A stretch of DNA of 64,000 nt, from the NCBI GenBank assembly GCA_964016885.1, contig OZ024740.1, positions 71,796,001 through 71,860,000 of the forward strand. The letters are read 5' to 3'. Below are positions 3,973 to 62,532 of this stretch, piece after piece. Numbering within the stretch: position 1 is the stretch's first letter; every line of letters begins with the position of its first letter. The DNA comes from Eledone cirrhosa (lineage: Eukaryota). The notes below the pieces were generated by a model. That model searched no databases. It worked only from the letters and a program-made list of their open reading frames with translations, and was not told the origin of the DNA. Made by a program: the position numbers and the translations under genes.

Positions 3973-4209
3973 CGGATGTAAATATAATGTATTTTGCAAT
4001 ACACTTTATGCTTAATTAAAAGCATTTTGAAGACCGTAAGCTATTGTTTTAAAGTAGTGACAAATTCACTCACTTCGATCTCAGCAAACAGGAGGTGCTG
4101 AGATCGAAGTGAGTGAATTTGTCACTACTTTAAAACAATAGCTTACGGTCTTCAAAATGCTTTTAATTAAGCATAAAGTGTATTGCAAAATACATTATAT
4201 TTACATCCG
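3973..4209. repeat. Perfect foldback palindrome, 114-bp arms with 9-nt loop, TA-flanked
   Basis: 3973-4086 is the reverse complement of 4096-4209; loop AACAGGAGG. Confidence 0.93.
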
Positions 4210-4353: not shown

Positions 4354-6421
4354 TCTCCCCCATATCGACCCGATAGAGGGACCAGCAGTGTTAGTCGAGG
4401 GGAGTATAATAAGTAAGGCAATCAAGGATATGAAGGACTGGTAAGGCGGCTGGGCCTTCGGAAATAGTTGCTGAGATGCTGAAGGCATCTGGCACGGTGG
4501 GACACACCATGGTCACCCGCATAGTTAACCAAGTCGTACAGAATGGGGTTGTTCCGAAGGACTGGCATAGCAGCATCATCGTTAACTGTTATAAGGGTAA
4601 AGGAGACGCCCTAGATAGGAGTAACTATAGAGGCATTAAATTAATCGACCAGGTCATGAAGGTCACGGAAAAAGTAATAGCGCAACTAATCAGAGAGAGA
4701 ATTGATCTAGATGAAATGCAGTTCGGGTTTGTGTCAGGCAAAAGCACCACAGACGCTCTTTTCATAGTACGACAACTACAGGAGAAGTACCTAGCTAAAG
4801 GTAAACCCCTCTACTTAGCTTTTGTCGACCTGGAGAAAGCCTTCGACAGAGTCCCCCGCTCCATTATCTGGTGGGCTCTTAGAAAACTAGGCGTTGACGA
4901 ATGGCTTGTGAGGGCTATACAAGCCATGTATAAAGAAACAGTCAGCAAGGTTAGAATTAACAACGAATATAGTGAAGAGTTTAGCGTAAAAGTTGGCGTC
5001 CATCAGGGCTCTGTTCTCAGCCCCCTACTATTTATTATTGCCCTTCAGGCTATAACAGAGGAGTTCAAGACAGGCTGCCCATGGGAACTCCTATACGCAG
5101 ACGACCTGACACTCATAGCGGAATCAATGGCCGAGCTAGAGAAGAAATTCCAAACATGGAAGCACGGCCTAGAGTCAAAAGGACTTAAAATTAACCTGGC
5201 TAAGACCAAAGTTCTAGTTTGTAGGAAAGAAAACAAGGCGGCGGTCCCTTCTGGGAAATGGTCGTGCTCGGTATGTAGGAAAGGCGTAGGTAGAAACTCC
5301 ATCTTATGTCCTAAATGCAAAGTATGGGTGCATAATAAAAGATGTAGTGGGATCACAGGTAAGCTAACTAAGAACATAGATTTTACATGTGGCCGGTGTT
5401 CTGGTGCAATAAGTAGCAGCAAGTGCCCACAAAATACTAGCTCTTTCAATTGCGCAGAGGGTTCTATAGAAATAGTGGACAGCTTCCGTTACCTGGGCGA
5501 TAAAATCAGCAGTGGGGGAGGGTGCTCTGAAAGTACTGTAGCTAGAGTCAGAACTGGTTGGAAAAAGTTCAGAGAGCTTATACCACTATTAGCTGCTAAA
5601 GGGTTCTCCCTAAAAATGAAAGGCAGGTTGTACGATGCCTGCATACGAACAGCAATGTTGCATGGTAGTGAGACCTGGGCATTGTGTGCAGAGGATATAC
5701 GCAGACTAGAGCGGAACGAAGCTTGCATGCTCCGCTGGATGTGTAACAGTAATATACGTGAACGGCAAAGCATAAACGAACTAAGGAAAAAATTAGAGAT
5801 AAGAGGGATCAGATGTTGTTTACTCGAGAGAAGGCTGCGTTGGTATGGACACGTGATGCGCATGAAAGTCGATAGCTGTATTACAAAGTGCAGGGCAATA
5901 AAGATAGACGGTAGCCACGGAATAGGCAGACCTAGAAAAACATGGGATGAGCTGATAAACTCCGACCTCACACACTTACACCTCTCCAAGACAATGTCAC
6001 TGGACCGAGACCTTTGGCGGTACTCAGTAACAGAGAAGACCCGCCTTGCCAGTAGGCATCTCTAACAAACTACACCCCGTCCCGCCACCACCCCCACCCC
6101 ATCCACACCACCCCGTTCTATGTAAAGTTATGTTGGTGCCGCGCCATCCAGGCCGAAACAAATGAGATCGTGTAGGTGTCACGACAAAAAAACACACAGT
6201 CCACGCTGTAATGTGGCCGTGTAGGCAACACGGTAAAAACCTCCCAGACCCACACTGTAAATGTGGTTGGTGTTAGGAAGGGCATCCAACTGTAGAAAAC
6301 CTGCCAGACAGTCCTATGCGAGCAAGACAATCACTCTTGCCTCAAGTGGGACTACCCCCGTCCAAACCCATGCAAGCGTGGAACACGGACGTTAAACGTT
6401 GATGATGATGATGATGATGAT
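4354..6421 (+). mobile_element. RTE-A LINE, 5'-truncated (RT ORF remnant 4476-6065)
   Basis: RT motifs [29 protein letters not shown]; PHD-type finger; 3' UTR and (GAT)n. Confidence 0.95.
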
Positions 6422-6528
6422 ATATATATATATATGTATATATATATATGTATATATATATATGTATATATATGTATATATATATATGTATATATATATA
6501 TGTATATATGTATATATATATATGTATA

Positions 6529-7976
6529 TCATCATCATCATCATCAATGTTTAACGTCCGTGTTCCACGCTTGCATGGGTTTGGACGGGGGTAGTCCCAC
6601 TTGAGGCAAGAGTGATTGTCTTGCTCGCATAGGACTGTCTGGCAGGTTTTCTACAGTTGGATGCCCTTCCTAACACCAACCACATTTACAGTGTGGGTCT
6701 GGGAGGTTTTTACCGTGTTGCCTACACGGCCACATTACAGCGTGGACTGTGTGTTTTTTTGTCGTGACACCTACACGATCTCATTTGTTTCGGCCTGGAT
6801 GGCGCGGCACCAACATAACTTTACATAGAACGGGGTGGTGTGGATGGGGTGGGGGTGGTGGCGGGACGGGGTGTATTTTGTTAGAGATGCCTACTGGCAA
6901 GGCGGGTCTTCTCTGTTACTGAGTACCGCCAAAGGTCTCGGTCCAGTGACATTGTCTTGGAGAGGTGTAAGTGTGTGAGGTCGGAGTTTATCAGCTCATC
7001 CCATGTTTTTCTAGGTCTGCCTATTCCGTGGCTACCGTCTATCTTTATTGCCCTGCACTTTGTTATACAGCTATCGACTTTCATGCGCATCACGTGTCCA
7101 TACCAACGCAGCCTTCTCTCGAGTAAACAACATCTGATCCCTCTTATCTCTAATTTTTTCCTTAGTTCGTTTATGCTTTGCCGTTCACGTATATTACTGT
7201 TACACATCCAGCGGAGCATGCAAGCTTCATTCCTCTCTAGTCTGCGTATATCCTCTGCACACAATGCCCAGGTCTCACTACCATGCAACATTGCTGTTCG
7301 TATGCAGGCATCGTACAACCTGCCTTTCATTTTTAGGGAGAACCCTTTAGCAGCTAATAGTGGTATAAGCTCTCTGAACTTTTTCCAACCAGTTCTGACT
7401 CTAGCTACAGTACTTTCAGAGCACCCTCCCCCACTGCTGATTTTATCGCCCAGGTAACGGAAGCTGTCCACTATTTCTATAGAACCCTCTGCGCAATTGA
7501 AAGAGCTAGTATTTTGTGGGCACTTGCTGCTACTTATTGCACCAGAACACCGGCCACATGTAAAATCTATGTTCTTAGTTAGCTTACCTGTGATCCCACT
7601 ACATCTTTTATGCACCCATACTTTGCATTTAGGACATAAAATGGAGTTTCTACCTACGCCTTTCCTACACACCGAGCACGACCATTTCCCAGAAGGGACT
7701 GCCGCCTTGTTTTCTTTCCTACAAACTAGAACTTTGGTCTTAGCCAGGTTAATTTAGAGTCCTTTTGACTCTAGGCCGTGCTTCCATGTTTGGAATTTCT
7801 TCTCTAGCTCAGCCATTGATTCCGCTATGAGTGTCAGGTCGTCTGCGTATAGGAGGTCCCATGGGCAGCCTGTCTTGAACTCCTCTGTTATAGCCTGAAG
7901 GGCAATAATAAATAGTAGGGGGCTGAGAACAGAGCCCTGATGGACGCCAACTTTTACGCTAAACTCTTCACTATAT
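6529..7976 (-). mobile_element. RTE-A LINE, 5'-truncated, inverted twin of 4967-6421 (nonsense codon at 7754)
   Basis: ORFs 7754-8236 and 6881-7672 encode the RT C-terminal half; shares the private 28-bp deletion giving the TRLASRHL end. Confidence 0.95.
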
Positions 7977-8380: not shown

Positions 8381-8424
8381 TATATATATGTATATATGTA
8401 TATATATATGTATATATATATATG

Positions 8425-8489
<65 letters not shown>

Positions 8490-8534
8490 GTATATATATA
8501 TATATGTATATATATATATGTATATATATATATG

Positions 8535-8565
<31 letters not shown>

Positions 8566-8832
8566 GTATATATATATGTATATATGTATATATGTATATA
8601 TATATGTATATATAATATATATATATATATGTATATGTATATATATATATATTTATGTATATATATATGTATATATGTATATATAATATATATATATGTA
8701 TATGTATATATATATATATTTATGTATATATATATATATAACGAAGGAAATGTGGTAAGGAACCAGGTGGACCATAACGCACCAAAGTACTCAATACTTG
8801 AGGTAGTAGAGTGGGTAATAGGAACCAGTAAG

Positions 8833-8926
8833 ACCCCGACAGCTGAGCTCAAGCCGTTTCGACGGCTAATTCTGGACTAAATGAAAATTTATCCTGGTAT
8901 TTAAATAGCCGATCTTCTCAAGGGGT
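8833..8926 (-). ncRNA. Type I hammerhead ribozyme motif (U3-A8 variant), mirror of 10008-10101
   Basis: Reverse complement of 10008-10101. Confidence 0.72.
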
Positions 8927-9606
8927 AATTCCATATATGGTCAAAGTGATTGTCAAAAATCAGTAGTAATTCTGTGGTTGCAAATTAGTAGGGGAGATGG
9001 TGGCTAAACCTGCCAGTAGGAGAAAGAGGGGAGGGGGTGGAGTAGACCCAATCAAGCGTTGGTAGTGCCAGCTACAGCTGGGCATGAGGTCAAAGAAGAT
9101 ACAGGGGAGAGGGAGGGGGAGGAAGTCGGAACGGTAGGTAGAACAATGGGGGGTAGAAATAGGAAAGAAAAAATACTGAGAGTGAAGAAAAGCAAATAAG
9201 TGTAAAGAAAAAGAAAAAGTAAAGTAAATTAAATTCAACGACCTAGGTGTCAGGCTATTGTTAGGCGAGAATAAAATAAAATATTGGGCGGGGTGGATTC
9301 TGAATTTATTTCTCCGTATTCTACCTTTATTTCGTACGAACTTTCATGTAGCTTGTTTTAGATCTTTTAGAGTTAGCATTAGTATATATTTTTTTCCCGG
9401 GACTCAGAATTATTATCTCGTACAAGTTCACTTTGCTGCACTGGGTCGTTGCTGGCCCGGGATGGAAACCTTTATTGTTTATTTCGTGGTAGTCTCTTTA
9501 GTATTTTGGCCCCTTTTGTTGACCCGTCACCGTATCATTTACGTACTTATACCTCTTAAAAGGGTCCTTGCCTTATCCGTCCCACCTAGTTCTCTTACTT
9601 ATTTCC

Positions 9607-9637
<31 letters not shown>

Positions 9638-10007
9638 CTTCTTTCTTTCTTTCTTTATTTTATTCTCGCCTAACAATAGCCTGACACCTAGGTCGTTGAA
9701 TTTAATCTACTTTACTTTTTCTTTTTCTTTACACTTATTTGCTTTTCTTCACTCTCAGTATTTTTTCTTTCCTATTTCTACCCCCCATTGTTCTACCTAC
9801 CGTTCCGACTTCCTCCCCCTCCCCCTCCCCTGTATCTTCTTTGACCTCATGCCCAGCTGTAGCTGGCACTACCAACGCTTGATTGGGTCTACTCCACCCC
9901 CTCCCCTCTTTCTCCTACTGGCAGGTTTAGCCACCATCTCCCCTACTAATTTGCAACCACAGAATTACTACTGATTTTTGACAATCACTTTGACCATATA
10001 TGGAATT

Positions 10008-10101
10008 ACCCCTTGAGAAGATCGGCTATTTAAATACCAGGATAAATTTTCATTTAGTCCAGAATTAGCCGTCGAAACGGCTTGAGCTCAGCTGTCGGGG
10101 T
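10008..10101 (+). ncRNA. Type I hammerhead ribozyme motif (U3-A8 variant), predicted cleavage after GUC at 10096
   Basis: Stem I ACCCC/GGGGT; core TTGAGAA; stem II GA(T)CGGCTA/TAGCCGTC; GAAA; stem III ACGGCT/AGCTGT with palindromic TGAGCTCA. Confidence 0.75.
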
Positions 10102-10113
10102 CTTACTGGTTCC

Positions 10114-11713
<1,600 letters not shown>

Positions 11714-12159: not shown

Positions 12160-15100
12160 TTTCCTTCTTCCTTCTTCGAAGGCACGGGGCGGTCAAACGC
12201 CTAACACTCACAGCCATCATGTGGCCCCCTCCCCTCGCTCTCTCTCACTCTCTCTCTCTCTCTATAAATATATGATAGGAATACCCAACACCCCTCCCTC
12301 CCACCCCCACGCACCACCATTGCTATTACGTGGACCAATCATAAAACAGAGCCCCCACGCATCACCAGTATTATTACGCGGACCAATCAGAAACCAGAGG
12401 CCTATACTATCGCTTGCCTGGTTGCCTTTCGATATACGATATATGATGGATGGATGGACTGCGGAATCCTGGAGAGTGGAGGTGAGAGAGAGAAAAATCT
12501 GGACGCTCAGCGACAATGCCAAAGATAAAGACAAATTCACCTCTTGGACGAGAATGCGAGCACTCCTCATTGTTTCGACCGCGGACGGCTAACATAACCC
12601 CATCGCCCCCCGCCCCTCACCGCCCCCAACCCCCAAACGCAATCCAAAACTTCAGAGTTGGTACCATAAATGTAGGCACCCTAAAGGGTCGCGCTAACGA
12701 GGTTGTAGAAATGCTTGAACGTAAGGAGGTCGATGTTTGTTGTATTCAAGAGACCAGGTGGAGGGGTGGGTCTGCTAGGTTCATTGAGGGTAAAAAACGA
12801 TGTTATAAGCTTTTCTGGGTGGGAAACGACGATGGGCTGGGTGGAGTAGGAATCATGGTAGCAGAAAAGTGGGCAGATAAGATAATAGACGTAAATAGAG
12901 TGAACGACAGAATAATTAAAATACGACTTGTCCTCAATAGAACTACGGTGACAGTAATATCTGCGTACGCACCCCAATCCGGACTGCCCGGCACTATAAA
13001 AGACAGATTCTATGAGACACTGATGCTAACTACCTCCCAAATACCCGACAGTGACTATATAATTATCGCAGGCGACCTAAATGGTCACGTTGGACAACAT
13101 CGTGACGGCTACGACGAAATCCATGGAGGCTATGGGTTTGGTACTAGAAATGAGGAAGGCTCCAGAATCCTGGAATTCTGTGATGCAAATAACCTAACTA
13201 TCTGTAACACTAACTTCAAAAAACGTGACAATCACCTGATCACCTATAGATCCGGGGAACACACAAGCCAGGTAGATTATATCCTTACCAGAAGACGTGA
13301 CAGAGTGTCTGTTGTTAACACTAAATCCCTCCCCCATGAAGAATGCACCTCCCAACATAGACTGATAATTAGCGACCTCATAGTCAGGACGAGACGTACT
13401 CGACAACAGAAGAGGACTATCCTCAGGAGGAAAATATGGAAGCTAAAGGACCCCACAGCCAGGAATAAATTTCAAAGCATATTACTTGATGCTTTCGACA
13501 GTAAGGAAGAACATTTAGAGTCGGACAATATAGAGGGAGAGTGGGAATTTCTGAAAGCAAAGCTGCTGTTGGCGACAGACGAGGTCTGTGGCTGGAGCAG
13601 GCCTGTAGGCAGGAGGAGAGTAACATGGTGGTGGAACAGTAAGGTGGAGGGGTCAATTAAGGCCAAAAAGCAGGCTTGGAAAGTATGGCGGGATGGGGGA
13701 AGTAGAGAGGACTATCAAGTGGCCAGGAGGGAAGCTAGGAGACAAGTGTACTTAGCAAGAAGGGAAGCTGAGGAAAGAAAGTTCAAGCATGTTCTACAAC
13801 GCGATGACCAAAAACGTGAGGTGTTCAGGATTGCTAGGCAATGCGTCAAGGAAAACCGTGATATTGTCGGGGAGAAGTGTGTACTAAACGACGATGGCAC
13901 ACTTGCCATCACCGACGCTGATAAGAAGGTAGCTTGGAAGTGTCACTATGAAAGGCTACTAAATGAGGAGAATAATTGGGAGAAAGGCAGTCTCCCCCAT
14001 ATCGACCCAATAGAGGGACCAGCAGTGTTAGTCGAGGGGAGTATAATAAGTAAGGCAATCAAGGATATGAAGACGGGTAAGGCGGCTGGGCCTTCGGAAA
14101 TAGTTGCTGAGATGCTGAAGGCATCTGGCACGGTGGGACACACCATGGTCACCCGCATAGTTAACCAAGTCGTACAGAATGGGGTTGTTCCGAAGGACTG
14201 GCATAGCAGCATCATCGTTAACTGTTATAAGGGTAAAGGAGACGCCCTAGATAGGAGTAACTATAGAGGCATTAAATTAATCGACCAGGTCATGAAGGTC
14301 ACGGAAAAAGTAATAGCGCAACTAATCAGAGAGAGAATTGACCTAGATGAAATGCAGTTCGGGTTTGTGTCAGGCAAAAGTACCACAGACGCTCTTTTCA
14401 TAGTACGACAACTACAGGAGAAGTACCTAGCTAAAGGTAAACCCCTCTACTTAGCTTTTGTCGACTTGGAGAAAGCCTTCGACAGAGTCCCCCGCTCCAT
14501 TATCTGGTGGGCTCTTAGAAAACTAGGCGTTGACGAATGGCTTGTGAGGGCTATACAAGCCATGTATAAAGAAACAGTCAGCAAGGTTAGAATTAACAAC
14601 GAATATAGTGAAGAGTTTAGCGTAAAAGTTGGCGTCCATCAGGGCTCTGTTCTCAGCCCACTACTATTTATTATTGCCCTTCAGGCTATAACAGAGGAGT
14701 TCAAGACAGGCTGCCCATGGGTACGCAGACGACCTGACACTCATAGCGGAATCAATGGCCGAGCTAGAGAAGAAATTCCAAACATGGAAGCACGGCCTAG
14801 AGTCAAAAGGACTTAAAATTAACCTGGCTAAGACCAAAGTACTAGTTTGTAGGAAAGAAAACAAGGCGGCGGTCCCTTCTGGGAAATGGTCGTGCTCGGT
14901 GTGTAGGAAAGGCGTAGGTAGAAACTCCATTTTATGTCCTAAATGCAAAGTATGGGTGCATAAAAGATGTAGTGGGATCACAGGTAAGCTAACTAAGAAC
15001 ATAGATTTTACATGTGGCCGGTGCTCTGGTGCAATAAGTAGCAGCAAGTGCCCACAAACTACTAGCTCTTTCAATTGCGCAGAGGGTTCTATAGAAATAG

Positions 15101-16078
15101 TGGACAGCTTCCGTTACCTGGGCGATAAAATCAGCAGTGGGGGAGGGTGCTCTGAAAGTACTGTAGCTAGAGTCAGAACTGGTTGGAAAAAGTTCAGAGA
15201 GCTTATACCACTATTAGCTGCTAAAGGGTTCTCACTAAAAATGAAAGGCAGGTTGTACGATGCCTGCATACGAACAGCAATGCTGCATGGCAGTGAGACC
15301 TGGGCATTGTGTGCAGAGGATATACGCAGACTAGAGAGGAACGAAGCTTGCATGCTCCGCTGGATGTGTAACAGTAATATACGTGAACGGCAAAGCATAA
15401 ACGAACTAAGGAAAAAATTAGAGATAAGAGGGATCAGATGTTGTTTACTCGAGAGAAGGCTACGTTGGTATGGACACGTGATGCGCATGAAAGTCGATAG
15501 CTGTATAACAAAGTGCAGGGCAATAAAGATAGACGGTAGTCACGGAATAGGCAGACCTAGAAAAACCTGGGACGAGCTGATAAACTCCGACATCACACAC
15601 TTACACCTCTCCAAGACAATGTCACTGGACCGAGACCTTTGGCGGTACTCAGTAACAGAGAAGACCCGCCTTACCTAAATATATAGTAAAACCTACTCCA
15701 GCCAGTAGGCATCTCTAACAAAATACACCCCGTCCCACCACCACCACCCCCACCCGATCCACACCACCCCGTTCTATGTAAAGTTATGTTGGTGCCGCGC
15801 CATCGAGGCCGAAACAAATGAGATCGTGTAGGTGTCACGACAAAAAAAAACACACAGTCCACGCTGTAATGTGGCCGTGTAGGCAACACGGTAAAAACCT
15901 CCCAGACCCACACTGTAAATGTGGTTGGTGTTAGGAAGGGCATCCAACTGTAGAAAACCTGCCAGACAGTCCTATGCGAGCAAGACAATCACTCTTGCCT
16001 CAAGTGGGACTACCCCCGTCCAAACCCATGCAAGCGTGGAACACGGACGTTAAACGTTGATGATGATGATGATGATGA
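12160..16078 (+). mobile_element. Near-full-length RTE-A LINE (5' boundary uncertain, may extend to ~11715)
   Basis: Complete APE-RT coding region, ~400-nt 3' UTR, (GAT)n tail then TA array. Confidence 0.92.
12516..15678 (+). pseudogene. RTE-A polyprotein (APE endonuclease, RT, PHD finger) frameshifted by an 8-bp deletion at ~14720
   Basis: APE motifs TINVGTL, CIQETRW, SAYAPQ, GDLNGH, DYIL, SQH; CCATGGG^TACGCAGAC lacks AACTCCTA present in other copies; ORFs 12516-14816 and 14755-15678. Confidence 0.92.
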
Positions 16079-23874: not shown

Positions 23875-25390
23875 TCATCATCATCATCATTTTACGTCCG
23901 CTTTTCCCTGCTTGCAAGGGTGGGACGGGTCTTATTCAGCACAGCATCTCTCCACTCGTCGCGGTCCCTCGTCATCTCCACCGTGAGCTTCAATGATCTG
24001 AGGTCTGTTCTAACCACCTCCGCCCATGTTTTTGGTGGTCTACCTCTACCACGTCTTCCTTCAACTGGCATTTCCTGGCACTTCTTCACCCATCGGTCAT
24101 CCTCCATGCGCATCACATGTCCATACCACCTCAGTCTCCTCTCCCGTACACTACATTCTATCCCTCTCAGACACAGTTTCTCTCTCAACACATTTATGCT
24201 GGGTCGTTCACGCACATTTACACTGCACATCCAACGGAGCATGCTTGCCTCATTTCTCTCCAGCCGTCGCATATCTTCTGCGGTTGCTGCCCATGTCTCA
24301 CTACCATGCAGCATCGCGCTCCTCACACAGGCATCATACAACCGGCCTTTCGTACGCAGGGAGAAACCCTTCTTCGTCAACAGAGGAAGCAGCTCCCTAA
24401 ACTTCTTCCAACCAGTCCTTATTCTAGATACTATGGCCTCGGAACACCCTCCTCCCATGCTAATCTGATCTCCTAGGTACCGGAAGCTATCCACCACTTC
24501 TATAGCGCCCTCTCGCATTTGAAAAATGTGTCTATCAGTGCGACTTCTACTGTCTAATTTCCCTGTACATCTACTGCATACATATTTCTCCCTACCTGTT
24601 AGTTTGCCTGCTATCCCGCTACATCTCTTGTGTACCCAGGACCTACATTGTGTGCATTTTATAGAATTTATGCCAGTTCCTTTTCTGCATATCGAACATG
24701 GCCATTTCCCTGACGGAATCAGGGTTTTGTCCTCTTTTCTACTCATCAACACTTTTGTCTTAGCTAGATTTACTCCCAGTCCTCTTGCTTCCAACTGCTG
24801 TTTCCATAGCCGGAATTTATTCTCTAGCTCCTCTACTGATTCTGCCATAAGAGCCAGATCGTCAGCATAGAGAAGTTCCCATGGACAGCCAGTCTTAAAC
24901 TCCTCTGTTATGGCTTGGAGGACTATAATGAACAAGAGCGGGCTGAGGACCGAACCCTGATGTACTCCTACTTGTATCTGGAATTCCTCACTAAACTCCA
25001 TTCCTACCCTGACTTTACTGAGAGTACCTCTGTACAAAGTTTGCACTGTCCTCACAAGACATTCCTCAACACCCAGCTTCCTTAGAGACCACCAGATGAC
25101 AGATCGGGGTACCCTATCAAAGGCCTTCTCTAGGTCAACAAAGGCTAAGTATAGTGGCTTATTCTTCTCTAAGAACCTCTCTTGCATTTGTCTCACCAAG
25201 AAGAGGGCATCTGTTGTACTCTTCCCAGGCATAAAACCAAACTGCATCTCATCTAGTTTGACCCTTTCTCTAATTAGTTGTGCTAAAATCCTTTCTGCCA
25301 CTTTCATAACCTGATCTATCAGTTTTATACCCCTATAATTGCTCCTCTCCAAAGCATCCCCTTTACCTTTGTAGCAATTTATGAGAATAC
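23875..25390 (-). mobile_element. RTE-B LINE, 5'-truncated, RT frame open
   Basis: Near-identical to 57914-59435; ORF ends [12 protein letters not shown] directly before (GAT)n. Confidence 0.95.
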
Positions 25391-32250: not shown

Positions 32251-32869
32251 TAAATATAAGTATGTATGTATACGTACATACATATATGTATACAGACGTA
32301 CAGTAGCATGTATATATATACATACAGGCACACATATATACATGCACATATCAGTTTACCGAACATTTATTATAATGCTCGGTTTGTTCGTTTGTAAACA
32401 AACAAACAGCCTGAATTACGCCGTACAGTGTTTAGGCAACCACGTCACCTTTTTGTTCAACACTGACACAGGAACGATGTACTAGTTTCAAGCTTGTTAG
32501 CTATCGTCAACACCGTATACCCTTCTGCCAGATGGTTGAACATTGGAAAGTATATACTTTCCTTATGAAAATTAACGGCTGAGCAGAAGGTATACGGTGC
32601 TGACGATAGCTAACAAGCTTGAAACTAGTACATCGTTCCTGTGTCAGTGTTGAACAAAAAGGTGACGTGGTTGCCTTAACACCGTACGGCATAAATCAGG
32701 CTGTCCGTTTGTTTACAAACGGACAAAGCGAGCGTTATAATAAACGTTCGCTAAACTGATACGTACATATATATATGTGTACCTGTATGTATATATATAT
32801 ATATATATATATGCATGCTACTGTACGTCTGTATACATATATGTATGTACGTATACATACTTACATTTA
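32251..32869. mobile_element. Head-to-head palindrome of hammerhead mini-element H4
   Basis: 32251-32529 is an imperfect reverse complement of 32583-32869; hammerhead motif in each arm. Confidence 0.8.
32594..32636 (+). ncRNA. Minimal type I hammerhead ribozyme motif, predicted cleavage after GUA at 32630
   Basis: Stem I ACGGTG/CATCGT; core CTGACGA; stem II AGCT-AACA-AGCT (U.U at base); GAAA; palindromic ACTAGT; mirror at 32474-32516 (-) has TTGACGA. Confidence 0.75.
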
Positions 32870-32973: not shown

Positions 32974-35111
32974 CATCATCATCATCATCGTTTAACGTCC
33001 ATGTTCCACGCTTGCATGGGTTTGGACGGGAGTTTTCCCACTTGAGGCAAGAGTGGTTGTCTTGCTCCCATAGGACTGTCTGGCGGGTTTTCTACAGCTG
33101 GATGCCCTTCCTAACACCAACCACATTTACAGTGTGGGGCTGGGAGGTTTTTACCATGTTGCCTACACGGCCACATTACAGCGTGGACTGTGTGTTTTTT
33201 TGTCGTGACACCTACACAAACTCATTTGTTTCGGCCTGGATGTTGTGGCACCAACATAACTTTACATTGAAAGGGTCGGTGTGGATAGGGTGGGGGTGGT
33301 GGGACGGGGGTGTGTTTTGTTAGAGATGCCTACTGACTGTAGTAGGTTTTACTTTGTATTTCAGGTAAGGCGGGTCTTCTCTATTACTGAGTACCGCCAA
33401 AGATCTCGGTCCAGTGACATTGTCTTGGAGAGGTGTAAGTGTGTGAGGTCGGAATTTATCGGGTCGTCCCAGGTTTTTCTGGGTCTGCCTACTCCGTGGC
33501 TACCGTCTATCTTTATTGCCCTGCAGTTTTTTATACAGCTGTCGTCTTTCATGCGCATCACGTGACCATACCAACGTAGCCTTCTCTCGACTAAACAACA
33601 TCTGATCCCTCTTATTTCTAATTTTTCCCTTAGTTCGTTTATGCTTTGCCGTTCGCATATATTACTATTACACATCCAGCGGAGCATGCAAGCTTCGTTC
33701 CTCTCTAGTCTGCGTATATCCACTGCACACAATGCCCAGGTCTCACTGCCATGCAACATTGCTGTTCGTATGCAGGCATCATACAGCCTGCCTTTCATTT
33801 TTAGGGAGAACCCTTTAGCGGCTAATAGTGGTATAAGCTCTCTGAACTTTTTCCATCCAGTTCTGACTCTAGCTACTGTACTTTCAGAGCACCCTCCCCC
33901 ACTGCTGATTTTGTCACCCAGGTAACGGAAGCTGTCCACTATTTCTATAGAACCCTCTGTGCAATTGAAAGAGCTAGTATTTTGTGGGCACTTGCTGCTA
34001 CTTATTGCACCAGAGCACCGGCCACATGTAAAATCTATGTTCTTAGTTAGCTTACCTGTGATCCCACTACATCTTTTATGCACCCATACTTTGCATTTGG
34101 GACATAAAATGGAGTTTCTACCTACGCCTTTCCTACACACTGAGCATGGGCATTTCCTGGAAGGGACCGGCGCCTTATTTTCTTTCCTACAAACTAGAAC
34201 TTTAGTCTTAGCCAGGTTAATTTTAAGGCCTTTTGATTCGAGGCCATGCTTCCATGTTTAGAATTTCTTCTCTAGCTCGGCCATTGATTCAGCTATGAGC
34301 GTTAGATCATCTGCGTATAGGAGTTCCCATGGGCAGCCGGTCTTGAACTCCACTGTTATAGCCTGTAGGGCAATAATAAATAGTAGGGGGTTAAGAACAG
34401 AGCCCTGATGAACACCAACTTTTACGCTAAACTCTTCACTATATTCGTTGTTAATTCTAACCTTGCTGACTGTTTCTTTATACATGGCTTGTATAGCTCT
34501 CACAAGCCATTCATCAACACCTAGTTTTCTAAGAGCCCACCAGATAATGGAACGGGGGACTCTGTCGAAGGCTTTCTCCAAGTCAACAAAAGCTAAGTAT
34601 AGGGGTTTACTTTTAGCTAGGTACTTCTGTATTTGTCGTACAATGAAAAGAGCGTCTGTGGTACTTTTGCCTGACACAAACCCGAACTGCATTTCATCTA
34701 GATCAATTCTCTCTCTGATTAGTTGCACTATTACTTTTTCCGTGACCTTCATGACCTGGTCGATTAATTTAATGCCTCTATAGTTACTCCTATCTAGGGC
34801 GTCTCCTCTACCCTTGTAACAGTTAATGATGATGCTCCTATGCCAGACCTTTGGAACAAGCACATTCTGTATGACTTCGTTTACTATCCGGGTGACCATG
34901 GTGTGTCCCATCATTCCAGAGGCTTTCAGCATCTCAGCAACTATTTCCGAAGGCCCAGCCGCCTTACCCGTCTTCATATCTTTGATAGCCTTACTTATTA
35001 TACTACCTTCAACTAACACTGCTGGTCCCTCTATTGGATCGATCTGGGAGAGACTATCCTTTTCCCATTTATTCTCCTCATTTAGTAGCCTTTCGTAGTG
35101 ACACTTCCAAG

Positions 35112-36127: not shown

Positions 36128-38987
36128 TCATCATCATCATCAACGTTTAACGTCCGTGTTCCACGCTTGCATGGGTTTGGACGGGGGTAGTCACACTTGA
36201 GGCAAGAGTGATTGTCTTGCTCGCATAGGACTGTCTGGCAGGTTTTCTACAGTTGGATGCCCTTCCTAACACCAACCACATTTACAGTGTGGGTCTGGGA
36301 GGTTTTTACCGTGTTGCCTACACGGCCACATTACAGTGTGGACTGTGTGTTTTTTTGTCGTGACACCTACACGATCTCATTTGTTTCGGCCTGGATGGCG
36401 CGGCACCAACATAACTTTACATAGAACGGGGTGGTGTGGATGGGGTGGGACGGGGTGTATTTTGTTAGAGATGCCTACTGGCTGGAGTAGGTTTTACTAT
36501 ATATTTAGGTAAGGCGGGTCTTCTCTGTTACTGAGTACCGCCAAAGGTCTCGGTCCAGTGACATTGTCTTGGAGAGGTGTAAGTGTGTGATGTCGGAGTT
36601 TATCAGCTCGTCCCAGGTTTTTCTAGGTCTGCCTATTCTGTGACTACCGTCTATCTTTATTGCCCTGCACTTTGTTATACAGCTATCGACTTTCATGCGC
36701 ATCACGTGTCCATACCAACGTAGCCTTCTCTCGAGTAAACAACATCTGATCCCTCTTATCTCTAATTTTTTCCTTAGTTCGTTTATGCTTTGCCGTTCAC
36801 GTATATTACTGTTACACATCCAGCGGAGCATGCAAGCTTCGTTCCTCTCTAGTCTGCGTATATCCTCTGCACACAATGCCCAGGTCTCACTGCCATGCAG
36901 CATTGCTGTTCGTATGCAGGCATCGTACAACCTGCCTTTCATTTTTAGGGAGAACCCTTTAGCAGCTAATAGTGGTATAAGCTCTCTGAACTTTTTCCAA
37001 CCAGTTCTGACTAGCTACAGTACTTTCAGAGCACCCTCCCCCACTGCTGATTTTATCGCCCAGGTAACGGAAGCTGTCCACTATTTCTATAGAACCCTCT
37101 GTGCAATTGAAAGAGCTAGTATTTTGTGGGCACTTGCTGCTACTTATTGCACCAGAACACCGGCCACATGTAAAATCTATGTTCTTAGTTAGCTTACCTG
37201 TGATCCCACTACATCTTTTATGCACCCATACTTTGCATTTAGGACATAAAATGGAGTTTCTACCTACGCCTTTCCTACACACCGAGCACGACCATTTCCC
37301 AGAAGGGACCGCCGCCTTGTTTTCTTTCCTACAAACTAGAACTTTGGTCTTAGCCAGGTTAATTTTAAGTCCTTTTGACTCTAGGCCGTGCTTCCATGTT
37401 TGGAATTTCTTCTCTAGCTCGGCCATTGATTCCGCTATGAGTGTCAGGTCGTCTGCGTATAGGAGTTCCCATGGGCAGCCTGTCTTGAACTCCTCTGTTA
37501 TAGCCTGAAGGGCAATAATAAATAGTAGGGGGCTGAGAACAGAGCCCTGATGGACGCCAACTTTTACGCTAAACTCTTCACTATATTCGTTGTTAATTCT
37601 AACCTTGCTGACTGTTTCTTTATACATGGCTTGTATAGCCCTCACAAGCCATTCGTCAACGCCTAGTTTTCTAAGAGCCCACCAGATAATGGAGCGGGGG
37701 ACTCTGTCGAAGGCTTTCTCCAAGTCGACAAAAGCTAAGTAGAGGGGTTTACCTTTAGTTAGGTACTTCTCCTGTAGTTGTCGTACTATGAAAAGAGCGT
37801 CTGTGGTACTTTTGCCTGACACAAACCCGAACTGCATTTCATCTAGGTCAATTCTCTCTCTGATTAGTTGCGCTATTACTTTTTCCGTGACCTTCATGAC
37901 CTGGTCGATTAATTTAATGCCTCTATAGTTACTCCTATCTAGGGTGTCTCCTTTACCCTTATAACAGTTAACGATGATGCTGCTATGCCAGTCCTTCGGA
38001 ACAACCCCATTCTGTACGACTTGGTTAACTATGCGGGTGACCATGGTGTGTCCCACCGTGCCAGATGCCTTCAGCATCTCAGCAACTATTTCCGAAGTTC
38101 CAGCCGCCTTACCCGTCTTCATATCCTTGATTGCTTTACTTATTATACTCCCCTCGACTAACACTGCTGGTCCCTCTATTGGGTCGATATGGGGGAGACT
38201 GTCTTTCTCCCATTTATTCTCCTCATTTAGTAGCCTTTCATAGTGACACTTCCAAGCTACCTTCTTATCAGCGTCGGTGATGGCAAGTGTGCCATCGTCG
38301 TTTAGTACACACTTCTCCCCGACAATATCACGGTTTTCCTTGACGCATTGCCTAGCAATCCTGAAGACCTCACGTTTTTGGTCATCGCGTTGTAGAACAT
38401 GCTTGAACTTTCTTTCCTCAGCTTCCCTTCTTGCTAAGTACACTTGTCTCCTAGCTTCCCTCCTGGCCACTTGATAGTCTTCTCTACTTCCCCCATCCCG
38501 CCATACTTTCCAAGCCTGCTTTTTGGCCTTAATTGACCCCTCCACCTTACTGTTCCACCACCATGTTACTCTCCTCCTGCCTACAGGCCTGCTCCAGCCA
38601 CAGACTTCGTCTGTCGCCAACAGCAGGTTTGCTTTCAGAAATTCCCACTCTCCCTCTATATTGTCCGACTCTAAATGTTCTTCCTTACTGTCGAAAGCAT
38701 CAAGTAATATGCTTTGAAATTTATTCCTGGCTGTGGGGTCCTTTAGCTTCCATATTTTTCTCCTGAGGATAGTCCTCTTCTGCTGTCGAGTACGTCTCGT
38801 CCTGACTATGAGGTCGCTAATTATCAGTCTATGTTGGGAGGTGCATTCTTCATGGGGGAGGGATTTAGTGTTTACAACAGACACTCTGTCACGTCTTCTG
38901 GTAAGGATATAATCTACCTGGCTTGTGTGTTCCTCGGATCTATAGGTGATCAGGTGATTGTCACGTTTTTTGAAGTTAGTGTTACAG
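36128..38987 (-). mobile_element. RTE-A LINE truncated inside the endonuclease; 2-bp frameshift at ~37011
   Basis: ORFs 36959-38987 and 36505-36942 almost identical to 13202-15678. Confidence 0.95.
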
Positions 38988-40227: not shown

Positions 40228-40298
40228 GATGTGTTGGTGTAATGGTAGCACAGTGGTCGCGATAACCAAAGATGTGGGTTCGACTCCCATGTATGTCA
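40228..40298 (+). pseudogene. tRNA-like sequence (pseudo-tRNA or SINE head)
   Basis: A box TGGTGTAATGG, D stem GTGT/GCAC, T arm ATGTGGGTTCGACTCCCAT; G.U-rich acceptor stem and non-canonical anticodon loop. Confidence 0.55.
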
Positions 40299-56439: not shown

Positions 56440-56471
<32 letters not shown>

Positions 56472-56473
<2 letters not shown>

Positions 56474-56569
56474 CAAAGGTGTGGTAAGATACCAGGTGGA
56501 CCATAAAGCACCAGAGTACTCGATACTTAAGGCCAGAGCTCAGCAGTCGAGGTCCTGACTCTTTTCTTA
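56472..56569. mobile_element. Tiny rearranged H2-family fragment
   Basis: Homologous to 8740-8805, followed by an inverted GAGCTCAGCAGTCGAGGTC stem III piece; TA-flanked. Confidence 0.6.
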
Positions 56570-56579
56570 TATATATATA

Positions 56580-59414
56580 TGGATCAATAAGACAATAGAG
56601 GTAGTTCGAGTTAGTAATCGAATAATTAAGCTTAGATTAGTTGTAGGTAGGAGACTACTGACAATCATCTCGGTCTATGCTCCCCAAGCAGGCCTAGGCA
56701 AAGATGAGAAAGACTGCTTTTATGAGCAACTTTTGCAAACAACCACAATGACAGAGGACGGAGACATCGTTATGCTAGCAGGAGACTTCAATGGTCATGT
56801 TGGACAGCTCCAGGATGGTTACACTGGGGTACATGGTGGGTACGGTTACGGTTCAAGAAATGAAGAAGGAGTGAGACTTCTTGAATTTTGTGATGCAAGT
56901 ACATTGACTATTTGCAACACAAACTTCCAGAAACCTGCCAATCACCTAATAACCTACAAATCTGGTGAGCACATAAGCCAGATTGACTTCCTGCTAGTTA
57001 GGCAGCGGGACAGGCAGATAGTGTCTAATACCAAGGCATACCCTGGGGAAGAATGTACCCCACAGCATAGGTTAGTTGTTAGTGATATCTCAGTAAGCAA
57101 GAGATGGAATGAGACATATAGGAAGGTGTGGAGAAGAAAGGTCTGGAAGCTAAAAGACCTTTCACTAAAATTCAAATTTAGGAAAGCCCTTCAAGATGTA
57201 TATGACGAAAAAGAAGACAATTTAGAGACGTATGACATAGATAATAACTGGAAGTTCTTACGTGACAACTTGCTGCAGACTACTGATGAAACCTGTGGCT
57301 GGAGCAGAGCTCCAACCAGACAGAGAGTGACCTGGTGGTGGAACAGCACAGTAGATAAGGCTATTAGAGACAAAAGACTAGCATGGAAGGCTTGGAAAAA
57401 GGGTGGGAGTAGGGAAGAATATACAGCCACTAAGAGAGAAGCTAGACGTCAGGTGTACTTAGCACGCAGGGAGGCAGGGAGTAGGAGGTTTGCCAATGTT
57501 CTGCGACGGGAAGATCAGAGGCGTGCGGTGTTCCACATTGCAAGGCAGTGTGTCAATGCAAATCAGGATGTTGTTGGTGATAAATGTGTCCGGGATGATG
57601 CCGGTGTACTTAGTGTCACGAATGACCAGAAAAAGGAGGCCTGGAAATGTCATTATGAGAGACTGATGAATGTGGAGAACGAATGGGAGAGAGAGAAATT
57701 ACCCTTGGTAGATCCGACAGAGGGACCAGCTATTGAGATTGACGAATATAGGGTCCAAGAGGCGATTAGGGAAATGAAAAATGGTAAGGCGGCCGGACCA
57801 TCGGGAATAGTTGCTGAGATGCTGAAGGCATCAGGGGACGTAGGCACTAAACTGGTTGCACGCATCATCAATCAGGCTATATATGGTGGTGTCATACCCA
57901 AAGACTGGTGCAGCAGTATTCTCATAAATTGCTACAAAGGTAAAGGGGATGCTTTGGAGAGGAGCAATTATAGGGGTATAAAACTGATAGATCAGGTTAT
58001 GAAAGTGGCAGAAAGGATTTTAGCACAACTAATTAGAGAAAGGGTCAAACTAGATGAGATGCAGTTTGGTTTTGTGCCTGGGAAGAGTACAACAGATGCC
58101 CTCTTCTTGGTGAGACAATTGCAAGAGAGGTTCTTAGAGAAGAATAAGCCACTATACTTAGCCTTTGTTGACCTAGAGAAGGCCTTTGATAGGGTACCCC
58201 GATCTGTCATCTGGTGGTCCCTAAGGAAGCTGGGTGTTGAGGAATGGCTTGTGAGGACAGTGCAAACTTTGTACAGAGGTACTCTCAGTAAAGTCAGGGT
58301 AGGAATGGAGTTTAGTGAGGAATTCCAGATACAAGTAGGAGTACATCAGGGTTCGGTCCTCAGCCCGCTCTTGTTCATTATAGTCCTCCAAGCCATAACA
58401 GAGGAGTTTAAGACTGGCTGTCCATGGGAACTTCTCTATGCTGACGATCTGGCTCTTATGGCAGAATCAGTAGAGGAGCTAGAGAATAAATTCCGGCTAT
58501 GGAAACAGCAGTTGGAAGCAAGAGGACTGAGAGTAAATCTAGCTAAGACAAAAGTGTTGATGAGTAGAAAAGAGGACAAAACCCTGATTCCGTCAGGGAA
58601 ATGGCCATGTTCGATATGCAGAAAAGGAACTGGCATAAATTCTATAAAATGCACACAATGCAGGTCCTGGGTACACAAGAGATGTAGCGGGATAGCAGGC
58701 AAACTAACAGGTAGGGAGAAATATGTATGCAGTAGATGTACAGGGAAATTAGACAGTAGAAGTCGCACTGATAGACACATTTTTCAAATGCGAGAGGGCG
58801 CTATAGAAGTGGTGGATAGCTTCCGGTACCTAGGAGATCAGATTAGCATGGGAGGAGGGTGTTCCGAGGCCATAGTATCTAGAATAAGGACGGGTTGGAA
58901 GAAGTTTAGGGAGCTGCTTCCTCTGTTGACGAAGAAGGGTTTCTCCCTGCGTACGAAAGGCCGGTTGTATGATGCCTGTGTGAGGAGCGCGATACTGCAT
59001 GGTAGTGAGACATGGGCAGCAACCGCAGAGGATATGCAACGGCTGGAGAGAAATGAGGCAAGCATGCTCCGTTGGATGTGCAGTGTAAATGTGCGTGAAC
59101 GACCCAGCATAAATGTGTTGAGAGAGAAACTGTGTCCGAGAGGGATAGAATGTAGTGTACGGGAGAGGAGACTGAGGTGGTATGGACATGTGATGCGCAT
59201 GGAGGATGACCGATGGGTGAAGAAGTGCCAGAAAATGCCAGTTGAAGGAAGACGTGGTAGAGGTAGACCACGAAAAACATGGGCAGAGGTGGTGAGAACA
59301 GACCTCAGATCATTGAAGCTCACGGTGGAGATGACGAGGGACCGTGACGAGTGGAGAGATGCTGTGCTGAATAAGACCCGTCCCACCCTTGCAAGCAGGG
59401 AAAAGCGGACGTAA
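56580..59414 (+). CDS. Uninterrupted partial RTE-B polyprotein frame (APE, RT, PHD finger); lacks N-terminus
   Basis: Frame open from WINKTIEVVRVSNRII through SVYAPQ, GDFNGH and YADD to REKRT*. Confidence 0.85.
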   Translation, partial: WINKTIEVVRVSNRIIKLRLVVGRRLLTIISVYAPQAGLGKDEKDCFYEQLLQTTTMTEDGDIVMLAGDFNGHVGQLQDGYTGVHGGYGYGSRNEEGVRLLEFCDASTLTICNTNFQKPANHLITYKSGEHISQIDFLLVRQRDRQIVSNTKAYPGEECTPQHRLVVSDISVSKRWNETYRKVWRRKVWKLKDLSLKFKFRKALQDVYDEKEDNLETYDIDNNWKFLRDNLLQTTDETCGWSRAPTRQRVTWWWNSTVDKAIRDKRLAWKAWKKGGSREEYTATKREARRQVYLARREAGSRRFANVLRREDQRRAVFHIARQCVNANQDVVGDKCVRDDAGVLSVTNDQKKEAWKCHYERLMNVENEWEREKLPLVDPTEGPAIEIDEYRVQEAIREMKNGKAAGPSGIVAEMLKASGDVGTKLVARIINQAIYGGVIPKDWCSSILINCYKGKGDALERSNYRGIKLIDQVMKVAERILAQLIRERVKLDEMQFGFVPGKSTTDALFLVRQLQERFLEKNKPLYLAFVDLEKAFDRVPRSVIWWSLRKLGVEEWLVRTVQTLYRGTLSKVRVGMEFSEEFQIQVGVHQGSVLSPLLFIIVLQAITEEFKTGCPWELLYADDLALMAESVEELENKFRLWKQQLEARGLRVNLAKTKVLMSRKEDKTLIPSGKWPCSICRKGTGINSIKCTQCRSWVHKRCSGIAGKLTGREKYVCSRCTGKLDSRSRTDRHIFQMREGAIEVVDSFRYLGDQISMGGGCSEAIVSRIRTGWKKFRELLPLLTKKGFSLRTKGRLYDACVRSAILHGSETWAATAEDMQRLERNEASMLRWMCSVNVRERPSINVLREKLCPRGIECSVRERRLRWYGHVMRMEDDRWVKKCQKMPVEGRRGRGRPRKTWAEVVRTDLRSLKLTVEMTRDRDEWRDAVLNKTRPTLASREKRT

Positions 59415-59435
59415 AATGATGATGATGATGATGAT
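56580..59435 (+). mobile_element. Young RTE-B LINE, 5'-truncated within the endonuclease
   Basis: Starts at a TA tract; (GAT)n tail directly after the stop codon. Confidence 0.95.
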
Positions 59436-59442
59436 ATATACA

Positions 59443-59937
59443 CAGGGTGTCTCAAAAAATGTATACACACTTTGATTAGAATGCTTTTAAAGTGGTAATT
59501 TACTATTTTATGTTCGTAAACTAAACTATTCCCGAATGTCAATAAAAAAAACAAAAAAACTTTATTAAAATTAATACAAATTACTGATAACAATTGAAAA
59601 TGCTGCCTGCAATAGTAAATTACCGGTTTGGTTGAAAATATGTGGATGAGGGCAAAACGTAAAATCCGTCGACAATTTGGTACTTCAGACGCCCTGTTCC
59701 CAAGTTATTTGCATGAATTTATTTGGCGAAATACTGTTCGTGCTGATAATACTTTTGCAGCATTTTCAATTGTTATCAGTAATTTGTATTAATTTTAATA
59801 AAGTTTATTTTTTTTATTGACATTCGGGAATCGTTTAATTTACGAACGTAAAATAGTAAATTACCCATTTTTTAAGTTTAACAGCATTCTAATCAAAGTG
59901 TGTATACAATTTTTTGGGGACACACACACACACCCTG
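59443..59937. mobile_element. Tc1/mariner-type MITE with ~165-bp TIRs
   Basis: CAGGGTGT...ACACCCTG termini, TA on the right flank; 59443-59606 complementary to 59757-59937. Confidence 0.8.
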
Positions 59938-60603: not shown

Positions 60604-61104
60604 TAGGCATACGTTAAGACGGGCGTTCCGGAAAGTGAAAGTAAATTTTTTGACAACAGTGAATTTGTTTTTTTGTTTTTTTTTAACAATGAAAGTTACG
60701 ATACACACGCAATTGTATGGATTTCTTAATATATATATATGTGTGGGTGTGTATATGTGTGTATATATGTGTGTACACTGTGAATTTGTTTGTTTATTTA
60801 CAACAGGTCTCTATAGTGATATGGCGTTAATTAGTATTGCGTGTGTGATTATTTTTTCTTTAGATAGACGTTAAACGATGATGATGACACAAACACATAT
60901 ATATATATACAAACACACACATATATATACATACAGACACACATATATATACACACATATACACACCCACACATATATATATATTAAGAAATCCATACAA
61001 TTGCGTGTGTATCGTAACTTTCATTGTAAAAACAAACAAACAAATTCACTGTTGTCAAAAAATTTACTTTCACTTTCCCGAACGCCCGTCTTAACGTATG
61101 CCTA
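60604..61104. repeat. Inverted repeat or MITE-like structure, ~165-bp arms, starting 80 bp upstream of the putative COMMD3 ATG
   Basis: TAGGCATACGTTAAGACGGGCG... versus ...CGCCCGTCTTAACGTATGCCTA; spacer holds a ~20-nt RTE tail. Confidence 0.85.
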
Positions 61105-61132: not shown

Positions 61133-61429
61133 TTAAAATACAAATATTAATAAAATAGATTTTCTTTTGATCAATTAAATTTTATTATACATATTTCGGA
61201 GGTACAACAGTACGTCCTCACCAGACAAAATATAATGATACATGACATACCCTGAGATGTTAAATGGTTAAGATTTAATTTGATTAAATCTTAACCATTT
61301 AACATCTCAGGGTATGTCATGTATCATTATATTTTGTCTGATGAGGACGTACTGTTGTACCTCCGAAATATGTATAATAAAATTTAAATGATCAAAAGAA
61401 CATCTATTTTATTAATATTTGTATTTTAA
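61133..61429. mobile_element. Head-to-head palindrome (147-bp arms, 3-nt loop) of hammerhead mini-element H6
   Basis: Arms differ at only a few positions; TA tracts on both sides. Confidence 0.85.
61331..61383 (+). ncRNA. Minimal type I hammerhead ribozyme motif, predicted cleavage after AUA at 61376
   Basis: Stem I ATTTTGT/ATAAAAT; core CTGATGA; stem II GGAcGTAC-TGTT-GTACcTCC; GAAA; stem III ATA-TG-TAT; mirror at 61179-61231 (-) has CTGGTGA. Confidence 0.78.
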
Positions 61430-62393: not shown

Positions 62394-62532
62394 GCGAAGG
62401 AGTTGTGGTAAGGAACCAGATGAACCATAACGCACCAGAGTACTCAATACTTAGGGTAGTAGAGTGGGTAATAGGAGAAAGTATGACCCCGACGGCAGAG
62501 CTCAAGCCGTTTCAACGGCTATTTCTGGACTA
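62394..62532 (-). mobile_element. H2-family terminal fragment with 3' half of hammerhead
   Basis: Homologous to 8741-8879; minus strand GAAACGGCTTGAGCTCTGCCGTCGGGGT. Confidence 0.75.

What the first reader, a model, noticed from the sequence alone, without database searches (positions are those of the whole stretch)
8740..10116. H2 element: inverted 463-bp arms, each with a U3-A8 variant hammerhead
Seen: the core reads UUGAGAA, replacing the canonical C3-G8 pair by U3-A8; all three stems form and the triplet is GUC. The relative at 62394-62532 has stem III ACGGC/GCCGT (G.U changed to G-C), and the 56472 fragment is also internally inverted. Established: a 5'-inverted partial pLTR is a typical Penelope insertion structure, and 3-8 pair covariants are known in natural hammerheads. 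Weak inference: the peptide NSLTPRSLN at ~9675-9701 could be a relic GIY-YIG C-terminus.
Basis: partly seen in the sequence, partly recalled or inferred. Interest (0 to 1): 0.72.

Follow-up and report, generated by a model that had tools for sequence, protein, structure and literature searches.

The report
Hydra-clade Penelope copy with variant hammerhead
This is a broken, mirror-image copy of a young and very abundant Penelope-type jumping gene carrying a known variant of a predicted self-cutting RNA; its interest is that the ends of its many sister copies likely record where the element's RNA starts and where that RNA is cut.

Summary
Confirmed: two 463-bp inverted arms (461/463 identical) in (TA)n, each with a type I hammerhead fold, core UUGAGAA, GUC at 10096. 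It is a 5'-truncated, head-to-head insertion of a young Penelope-like family. The autonomous partner is in this genome: a 3,542-bp unit with a 717-aa ORF (TERT-like RT fold, GIY-YIG motif, Hydra-clade motifs). NSLTPRSLN is not a GIY-YIG relic; it lies in the 3' UTR. U3-A8 is already published, also in Penelope elements. What the family adds: (1) the 3-8 pair likely went C-G, U.G, U-A, C.A, U-A, and the C3.A8 mismatch amplified to 1,435 copies; (2) about 89% of arms stop inside ribozyme loop II at a conserved initiator-like TYAGTY, the likely transcription start; (3) a small sharp peak of 5' ends lies exactly at the predicted cut; (4) longer-than-unit copies read through that point (0 of 27 stop there), which fits circular or read-through templates. 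Cleavage and transcription start are untested; no RNA run was listed. This scan noted a Hydra-clade U3-A8 hammerhead in this genome, and start-marking ends in another genome, before.

The parts
8740..9280 (-). Left arm: 3' end of the element, about -441 to +98 relative to the predicted cut (C17 = 0); long 3' end
8740..8817 (-). 78-bp tail between the two 3' ends (+20 and +98), present on this arm only
8833..8926 (-). Hammerhead copy in the left arm (mirror of 10008-10101; predicted cut after 8838)
   Evidence: the two arm mismatches lie outside the ribozyme
9281..9284 (.). ATAT junction between the 5' ends of the two arms
9285..10116 (+). Right arm: last 832 bp of the element (3' UTR and ribozyme), ending at +20; short 3' end
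9675..9701 (+). NSLTPRSLN codons: 3' UTR, not coding
   Evidence: 777 nt after the stop of the intact ORF, different frame
10008..10101 (+). Type I hammerhead: stem I 10008-12/10097-101; core U3-A9 10013-19; stem II 10020-28/10066-73; GAA 10074-76; stem III 10077-81/10091-95; predicted cut after C10096
10050..10059 (+). Initiator-like TCATTT/TTAGTC in loop II (A at -44 and -40); likely transcription start (inferred)
   Evidence: Inr consensus TCAKTY from PMC4581360
10083..10090 (+). Palindromic loop III (TGAGCTCA); predicted dimer helix
   Evidence: -26.5 kcal/mol as dimer, -5.0 per monomer
8400..8739 (.). (TA)n target microsatellite, left (continues beyond 8400)
10117..10500 (.). (TA)n target microsatellite, right (continues beyond 10500)
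62394..62532 (-). Short arm of an older subfamily, -41 to +98, lacks the 5' core half
56471..56570 (.). Short head-to-head relic of an old subfamily: tail piece (-) joined to about -16..+21 (+)

Best explanation
The locus is a 5'-truncated, head-to-head copy of a young Penelope-like retrotransposon family with Hydra-clade protein motifs, inserted in (TA)n, whose two arms end at two fixed sites 20 and 98 bases past a predicted U3-A8 hammerhead cut and were likely reverse-transcribed from those two sites onto opposite strands of one target break. Shown: the autonomous unit, the two fixed 3' ends (one per arm), the same subfamily in both arms. Inferred: RT starts internally at the two sites, perhaps helped by TAT pairing with the cut (TA)n. 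Two template pools likely exist. Linear transcripts that start at the initiator-like motif inside loop II give the ~89% of arms that stop at -33 to -47; a minority cut by the ribozyme stop at +1. Long arms like this one, and longer-than-unit tandems, likely come from templates with no end at that point, most simply unit-length circles made by ribozyme cutting and ligation. Odds by step: identity 0.97; real hammerhead 0.9; cuts in vivo 0.6; start site in loop II 0.65; circles 0.4.
For: 3,542/3,543-bp tandem units with 784-786-aa open frames; 57 of 57 scored matches are full-length at 99-100% identity, 50 without internal stops; model pLDDT 93, top fold hit TERT 3du5, E 1.6e-8; RWR, DKT, YRDD, CxCX5C, VIY..YIG as in Craig 2021 section 11. 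Of 71 inverted partners of tail-bearing arms, 70 have the short end. 40 of 41 arm pairs agree at the subfamily site -6. Structure on 25 copies: 88.4% of cells paired, 21.6-47.9% when slid. With positions 3-9 free, 97 of the first 100 listed keep U4, G5, A6, A9, and position 7 takes all four bases (counted by eye). 62,363 matches to the 3' half against 7,095 to the 5' half with stem II. 52 of 96 arms and 57 of 71 partners end at -33..-47, none at -48..-56; contig depth falls about 15-fold or more there in X1, X2 and X4. TYAGTY with A at -40 persists through all 10 subfamily groups. 19 of 49 loci end at +1, against 4, 1, 4, 0 at +2, 0, -1, -2. Complete-ribozyme arms pair with each other in 21 of 79 insertions, 6-11% expected. 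0 of 27 full-ORF copies with a defined 5' end stop at -30..-50.
Against: No RNA data: start site, cleavage and circles are unobserved. The result refutes the simple version (one linear transcript from -40); the two-pool model was added to explain it. A C3.A8 core amplified to 1,435 copies with long arms, and the +1 peak is no weaker there: 5 of 5 +1 copies of the shared type with a readable tail carry the letter of the C3.A8 subfamily. So either that mismatch still cuts, or the +1 peak and the long copies do not need the ribozyme. In the anole element, ribozyme mutants did not affect insertion in vitro and no reads ended at the cut (PMC11167929). The +1 sample is biased by pattern geometry, a G run and CpG decay at C17. 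Covariation is modest: 5 pairs with double changes, 69 of 500 shuffles as high; the patterns that retrieved those rows fixed part of the motif. Rfam no hit.
Confidence: 0.6

Rival explanations
1. Same element, but the ribozyme is dispensable: long copies come from uncut read-through multimers, the 3-8 changes are near-neutral drift, and the +1 peak is an RT pause at the base of stem III.
For: C3.A8 subfamilies amplified (1,435) and gave long arms; ribozyme-dead anole RNA inserts normally in vitro (PMC11167929); Naiad elements thrive without canonical hammerheads (PMC8557442).
Against: U4, G5, A6, A9 are kept across subfamilies while position 7 and loop II change freely; the pair returned to U-A; a pause at stem III would be expected to include C17 (end at 0 or -1), yet +1 has 19 against 1 and 4; multimers started at the loop II motif should give full-length copies ending at -40, and 0 of 27 do.
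Confidence: 0.3
3. The short and inverted copies are a self-spreading non-autonomous element (retrozyme- or MITE-like) copied from non-coding masters.
For: Short copies outnumber complete ones about 9 to 1; retrozymes derive from pLTRs (bioRxiv 10.64898/2026.07.22.740005).
Against: Junctions differ from copy to copy; short copies carry the diagnostic letters of the autonomous subfamilies; the window copy is 98.7-99.3% identical to the coding unit; most short copies lack half the ribozyme.
Confidence: 0.05

Closest known systems
Hydra clade of C-terminal EN+ Penelope-like elements (Craig et al. 2021, PMC8557442; e.g. Hydra-1_Obim, Hydra-2_Amil)
   Same: Single ORF, RW(K/R), DKT, CxCX5C linker, CxxC and CxH by the conserved E and N, C-terminal GIY-YIG, (TA)n target, inverted 5'-truncated copies, tail at one end, type I hammerhead at the 3' end.
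   Different: Unit 3.54 kb (listed Hydra families 1.1-3.0 kb), 1.2-kb 3' UTR, 78-bp tail (30-40 bp in their Fig. 2). All Hydra hammerheads in their File S2 have CUGANGA and a 3-4-bp stem III with a 1-3-nt loop; this one has UUGAGAA, a 5-bp stem III with a 9-nt loop, and a 37-nt loop II. A different family from Hydra-1_Obim (other ribozyme; protein alike by eye only).
U3-A8 hammerheads of Schistosoma mansoni Cercyon PLEs (Cervera and de la Pena 2014, PMC4209133) and natural U3-A8 variants (Perreault 2011, PMC3088659)
   Same: Same core exchange; long stem II with an unpaired base after position 9/10.1; palindromic loop III; motifs on opposite strands a few hundred bases apart.
   Different: Here stem III can form in a monomer, and the genome keeps all four 3-8 states in an ordered series, including an amplified mismatch.
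Poseidon element of the green anole, PAc (Frangieh et al. 2024, PMC11167929)
   Same: Two internal RT start sites bounding the tail, both target strands extended, AT-rich target, read-through of the ribozyme.
   Different: Other clade; its ORF starts inside the ribozyme (here ATG at +191); its start sites are described as not homologous to the target, while both ends here fall at TAT; no reads ended at its cut site, while genomic copies here peak at +1.
Drosophila virilis Penelope promoter (Schostak et al. 2008, PMC2377424)
   Same: Internal promoter with Inr in the pLTR of the upstream copy.
   Different: Mapped by experiment there; inferred from insertion ends here; no intron looked for here.

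Membership tests
EN+ Penelope-like element | Single ORF with telomerase-like RT | tested here: met
   717-aa ORF; model pLDDT 93; top Foldseek hit TERT 3du5. Pfam and PDB sequence searches gave nothing.
EN+ Penelope-like element | C-terminal GIY-YIG endonuclease | tested here: met
   VIY-x-AYIGLT, conserved R, E, N in alignment; best homolog P0002 carries PF01541. By motif; no separate domain fold search.
EN+ Penelope-like element | Tandem/partial tandem (pLTR) and inverted 5'-truncated copies, tail at one end | tested here: met
Hydra clade | RWK, DKT, CxCX5C linker, CxxC and CxH, no CCHH | tested here: met
   RWR, SDKTG, CNCPDRSIC, CNLC..E, CKH against section 11 of PMC8557442; CCHH judged absent by eye.
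Hydra clade | Placement in the Hydra RT clade | tested here: inconclusive
   No tree with the published sequences. By eye P0055 matches Hydra-2_Amil nearly letter for letter, and the ORF is 41% identical to P0055 over 96%.
Hydra clade | Insertion into (TA)n | tested here: met
Hydra clade (descriptive trait) | Canonical CUGANGA hammerhead | tested here: not met
   UUGANAA in the young subfamilies; CUGANGA only in the oldest. Hence filed as a variant.
Type I hammerhead ribozyme | Three stems around YUGANRA / GAAA / NUH with 3-8 pair | tested here: met
Type I hammerhead ribozyme | Match to Rfam hammerhead models | tested here: not met
   no hammerhead hit to E 10; the long loop II and the variant core may account for it.
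Type I hammerhead ribozyme | Self-cleavage after C17 | not testable with these tools
   Indirect only: 5' ends peak at +1.
Type I hammerhead ribozyme | Loop I-loop II tertiary contact | not tested
   Not examined.
Non-LTR retrozyme | Non-coding tandem units, each with a hammerhead | tested here: not met
   The tandem unit found is 3.54 kb and coding.

The most novel reading that the evidence does not exclude
The copies form a genomic record of the Penelope cycle: the promoter fires inside the ribozyme so that the 5' copy cannot cut alone, linear transcripts give only dead-end mini-insertions, ribozyme-made circles give all long and tandem copies, and a C3.A8 mismatch hammerhead was active enough in vivo, probably with protein help, to carry a lineage of more than a thousand copies.
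Probability: 0.3. Interest if true: 0.75.

Novelty: new variant of a known kind. Interest (0 to 1): 0.52.

Why it matters
What hammerheads do for Penelope-like elements is open: circles were proposed in 2014, while the one reconstituted element did not need cleavage. This family has dozens of intact ORFs, tens of thousands of mappable ends and four natural states of the 3-8 pair on one scaffold, so the start site, the cut, the circle and the tolerance of the core can each be tested with ordinary assays. The single locus is an ordinary dead copy.

Tried and rejected
GIY-YIG relic at 9675-9701: rejected. Rfam: no hammerhead hit in the element; the whole-window scan listed mostly microsatellite noise (best 150 of 437 shown). 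Pfam and PDB sequence searches of the ORF and its alignment: nothing useful. No RNA holder listed; only contigs of unknown kind could be laid. The 28 C3-G8 matches are not all ancestral: 10 fall inside the C3.A8 part of the tree and are likely later point mutants. One linear transcript from -40 as template of all copies: rejected. One search used a mis-registered structure and is discarded; one search replaces it. (partner length within 1.5 kb) was biased and small: 8 of 16 visible partners complete, 45 of 61 not visible. Cap-derived extra G at the -40 ends: inconclusive, 26 junctions, and the script mis-extended the 8 from two subfamilies. Tail hairpin: single-sequence folds did not agree, covariation not tested. 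MTE-, Bridge- and DPE-like matches downstream of the Inr-like motif are partial and are not claimed. Arms from different parent subfamilies: not seen. My notebook and one search give 47 of 96 for the wall; the histogram sums to 52 of 96. Lunse 2017, Przybilski and Hammann 2007 and Nelson and Uhlenbeck 2008 were not held, so measured rates for C3.A8 and U3.G8 were not seen.

Full report
Observation. The arms 8818-9280 (-) and 9654-10116 (+) are 463 bp with two private mismatches. Both flanks are (TA)n. Positions below are given relative to C17 (window 10096 = 0). The left arm runs from about -441 to +98, the right arm from 9285 to +20, with ATAT between their 5' ends. The lowest-energy fold of 10007-10102 is the type I hammerhead, though the region is no more stable than shuffles and Rfam does not detect it.

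The autonomous partner. A DNA search of the own genome gave 1,748 candidates; the 40 scored were 98-100% identical. One cluster is an array with periods of 3,542-3,543 bp and four open frames of 784-786 aa. From the Met that aligns with homologs the ORF is 717 aa. All 57 scored protein matches are full-length, 50 without internal stops. The model has pLDDT 93 and its best fold match is TERT. The motifs RWR, DKT, YRDD, CxCX5C, VIY..YIG, CxxC and CxH are those that Craig et al. 2021 give for the Hydra clade (PMC8557442; passages, section 11, and supplement part 2 of 59 plus search passages seen). NSLTPRSLN lies 777 nt after the stop, in another frame: not a relic.

The ribozyme. On 25 hand-picked copies across subfamilies, 88.4% of cells pair, against 21.6-47.9% for slid controls; stem II has a G-C to A-U double change in 7 copies; only 5 pairs show double changes, and 69 of 500 shuffles reach that. 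With positions 3-9 left free, 97 of the first 100 of 7,095 matches keep U4, G5, A6 and A9, and position 7 takes all four bases (by eye). Loop III is palindromic and a dimer helix is predicted; the patterns required that palindrome. U3-A8 is published: in nature (PMC3088659, section 8 and passages) and in Schistosoma PLEs (PMC4209133, parts 1-2 of 4). The Hydra hammerheads listed in File S2 of Craig et al. all have CUGANGA.

History of the 3-8 pair. One pattern with four cores gave U3-A8 5,039, C3.A8 1,435, U3.G8 52, C3-G8 28, reversed controls 0. A tree of 118 copies (all 28 C-G, the first 30 of each other state; positions 3 and 8 masked; 218 columns; midpoint root; bootstrap not fully settled) gives a ladder C-G, U.G, U-A, C.A, U-A, with 100/99 and 100/98 support at the nodes that enter the first U-A and the C.A groups. 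Divergence within hand-drawn groups (92 of the 118 copies; likely single mutants left out) falls along it: 12.5-14.6, 6.4, 4.6, 5.0 and 3.1, then 1.9-0.4%. So the exchange likely went through a wobble, was broken to a mismatch that still amplified, and returned. Single 3-8 mutants C3G and G8C kill the anole ribozyme (PMC11167929, parts 1-2 of 4). That G8A cripples minimal hammerheads is my recall; the papers with rates were not held.

Ends. Copies have two 3' ends, +20 and +98, both at a TAT shared with the target. In 96 arms chosen by a tail pattern (90 loci from the first 100 of 29,513 matches; the pattern misses the window's own subfamily), 83 had an inverted hit; 12 were dropped as hits to far-upstream parts of the references; 70 of the other 71 have the short end. 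This fits the two internal RT starts and two-strand extension shown for the anole element. 5' ends pile up: 52 of 96 arms and 57 of 71 partners at -33..-47, none at -48..-56. Genome-wide, 62,363 matches hold the 3' half and 7,095 the 5' half with stem II (different patterns, so about 89% is rough). Contig depth drops at the same place in X1, X2 (one sample) and X4, and short pairs of the window's subfamily end there too (L036, L040, L043). The motif kept in loop II across all groups is TYAGTY with A at -40, close to the Drosophila Inr TCAKTY (PMC4581360, passages). D. virilis Penelope starts at an Inr in its pLTR (PMC2377424, passages). I infer a transcription start.

Against the simple model. 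Of 58 full-ORF rows from 50 loci (arrays counted more than once; one locus gave no row), all extend past -137; 27 have defined ends, none at -30..-50; a further copy, L035, ends at -26. Complete-ribozyme arms pair with each other in 21 of 79 insertions among the first 100 listed; independent arms would give 6-11% (P about 1.5e-4 at 11%). So passing the wall is a property of the whole event, and long templates lack an end there.

The cut site. Among 49 loci with (TA)4 within 16 nt of +2 (first 100 of 911 overlapping rows), 19 end at +1, after counting one tandem locus once and dropping one mutated longer copy; +2, 0, -1 and -2 have 4, 1, 4 and 0. Five of the 19 abut TA repeats directly. This is the end that a cut RNA would have. 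The sample is biased toward ends near +2, and an RT pause is not excluded. The peak is present in C3.A8-type copies, which means either that the mismatch cuts or that the peak is not made by the ribozyme.

Mechanism. Best reading: linear transcripts from loop II give short dead-end pairs, cut RNAs give +1 ends, and circles (proposed in PMC4209133; reviewed in PMC6765202, passages) give long arms and tandems. Rivals are read-through multimers with a dispensable ribozyme, and a protein or structure block at -40.

Novelty. Element type, inversion, tail and U3-A8 are known. In ten literature searches I did not find truncation ends used to map a PLE start site or cut, nor an amplified C3.A8 core; Lunse 2017 was not held, and the supplements of PMC4209133, PMC11167929 and PMC3088659 were not read and may bear on this. 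The bioRxiv retrozyme paper was read in part 1 of 5. Earlier AI notes of this scan (one search found none by sequence) describe a Hydra-clade U3-A8 hammerhead in this genome, start-marking ends in another genome and circle templates for retrozymes; I read them after forming these readings and they are not evidence. One note's sign of arms from different parents was not seen here at subfamily level. Verdict: new variant of a known kind, interest 0.52.

Noticed in passing
L033:3117-6742 (G000:C1:91489116-91492741): Between the two arms of the large tandem insertion, a 55-bp piece of the ORF is repeated 65.9 times at 99% identity, starting where the long arm ends. It may be repeated re-copying by the telomerase-like RT or a later satellite expansion.
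   Followed up: partly
window 40228-40298 (+): Rfam tRNA match, 38.9 bits, above the gathering score of 29, inside a short repeat; possibly a SINE head.
   Followed up: no
window 4373-7967, 13068-16070, 32975-35103, 36132-38983, 23881-25385, 56778-59425, 62583-64000: Several young 5'-truncated repeats with (CAT)n tails and RT-like coding, two of them tail to tail as 1,084-bp inverted arms. RTE-type LINEs and an octopus-type host by recall only.
   Followed up: no
window 3981-4201, 32346-32764, 59471-59897, 60609-61099, 61150-61412: Other fold-back elements, unrelated to this family by BLAST.
   Followed up: no
L032:4199-4158 (-): A short upstream ATG frame of 13 codons lies in the tail, between the inferred start site and the main ATG (read).
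   Followed up: no
L328, L375, L380: Short arms with internal deletions between the repeated GCCGTC of stems II and III, or across stem III, as if RT skipped the hairpin.
   Followed up: no
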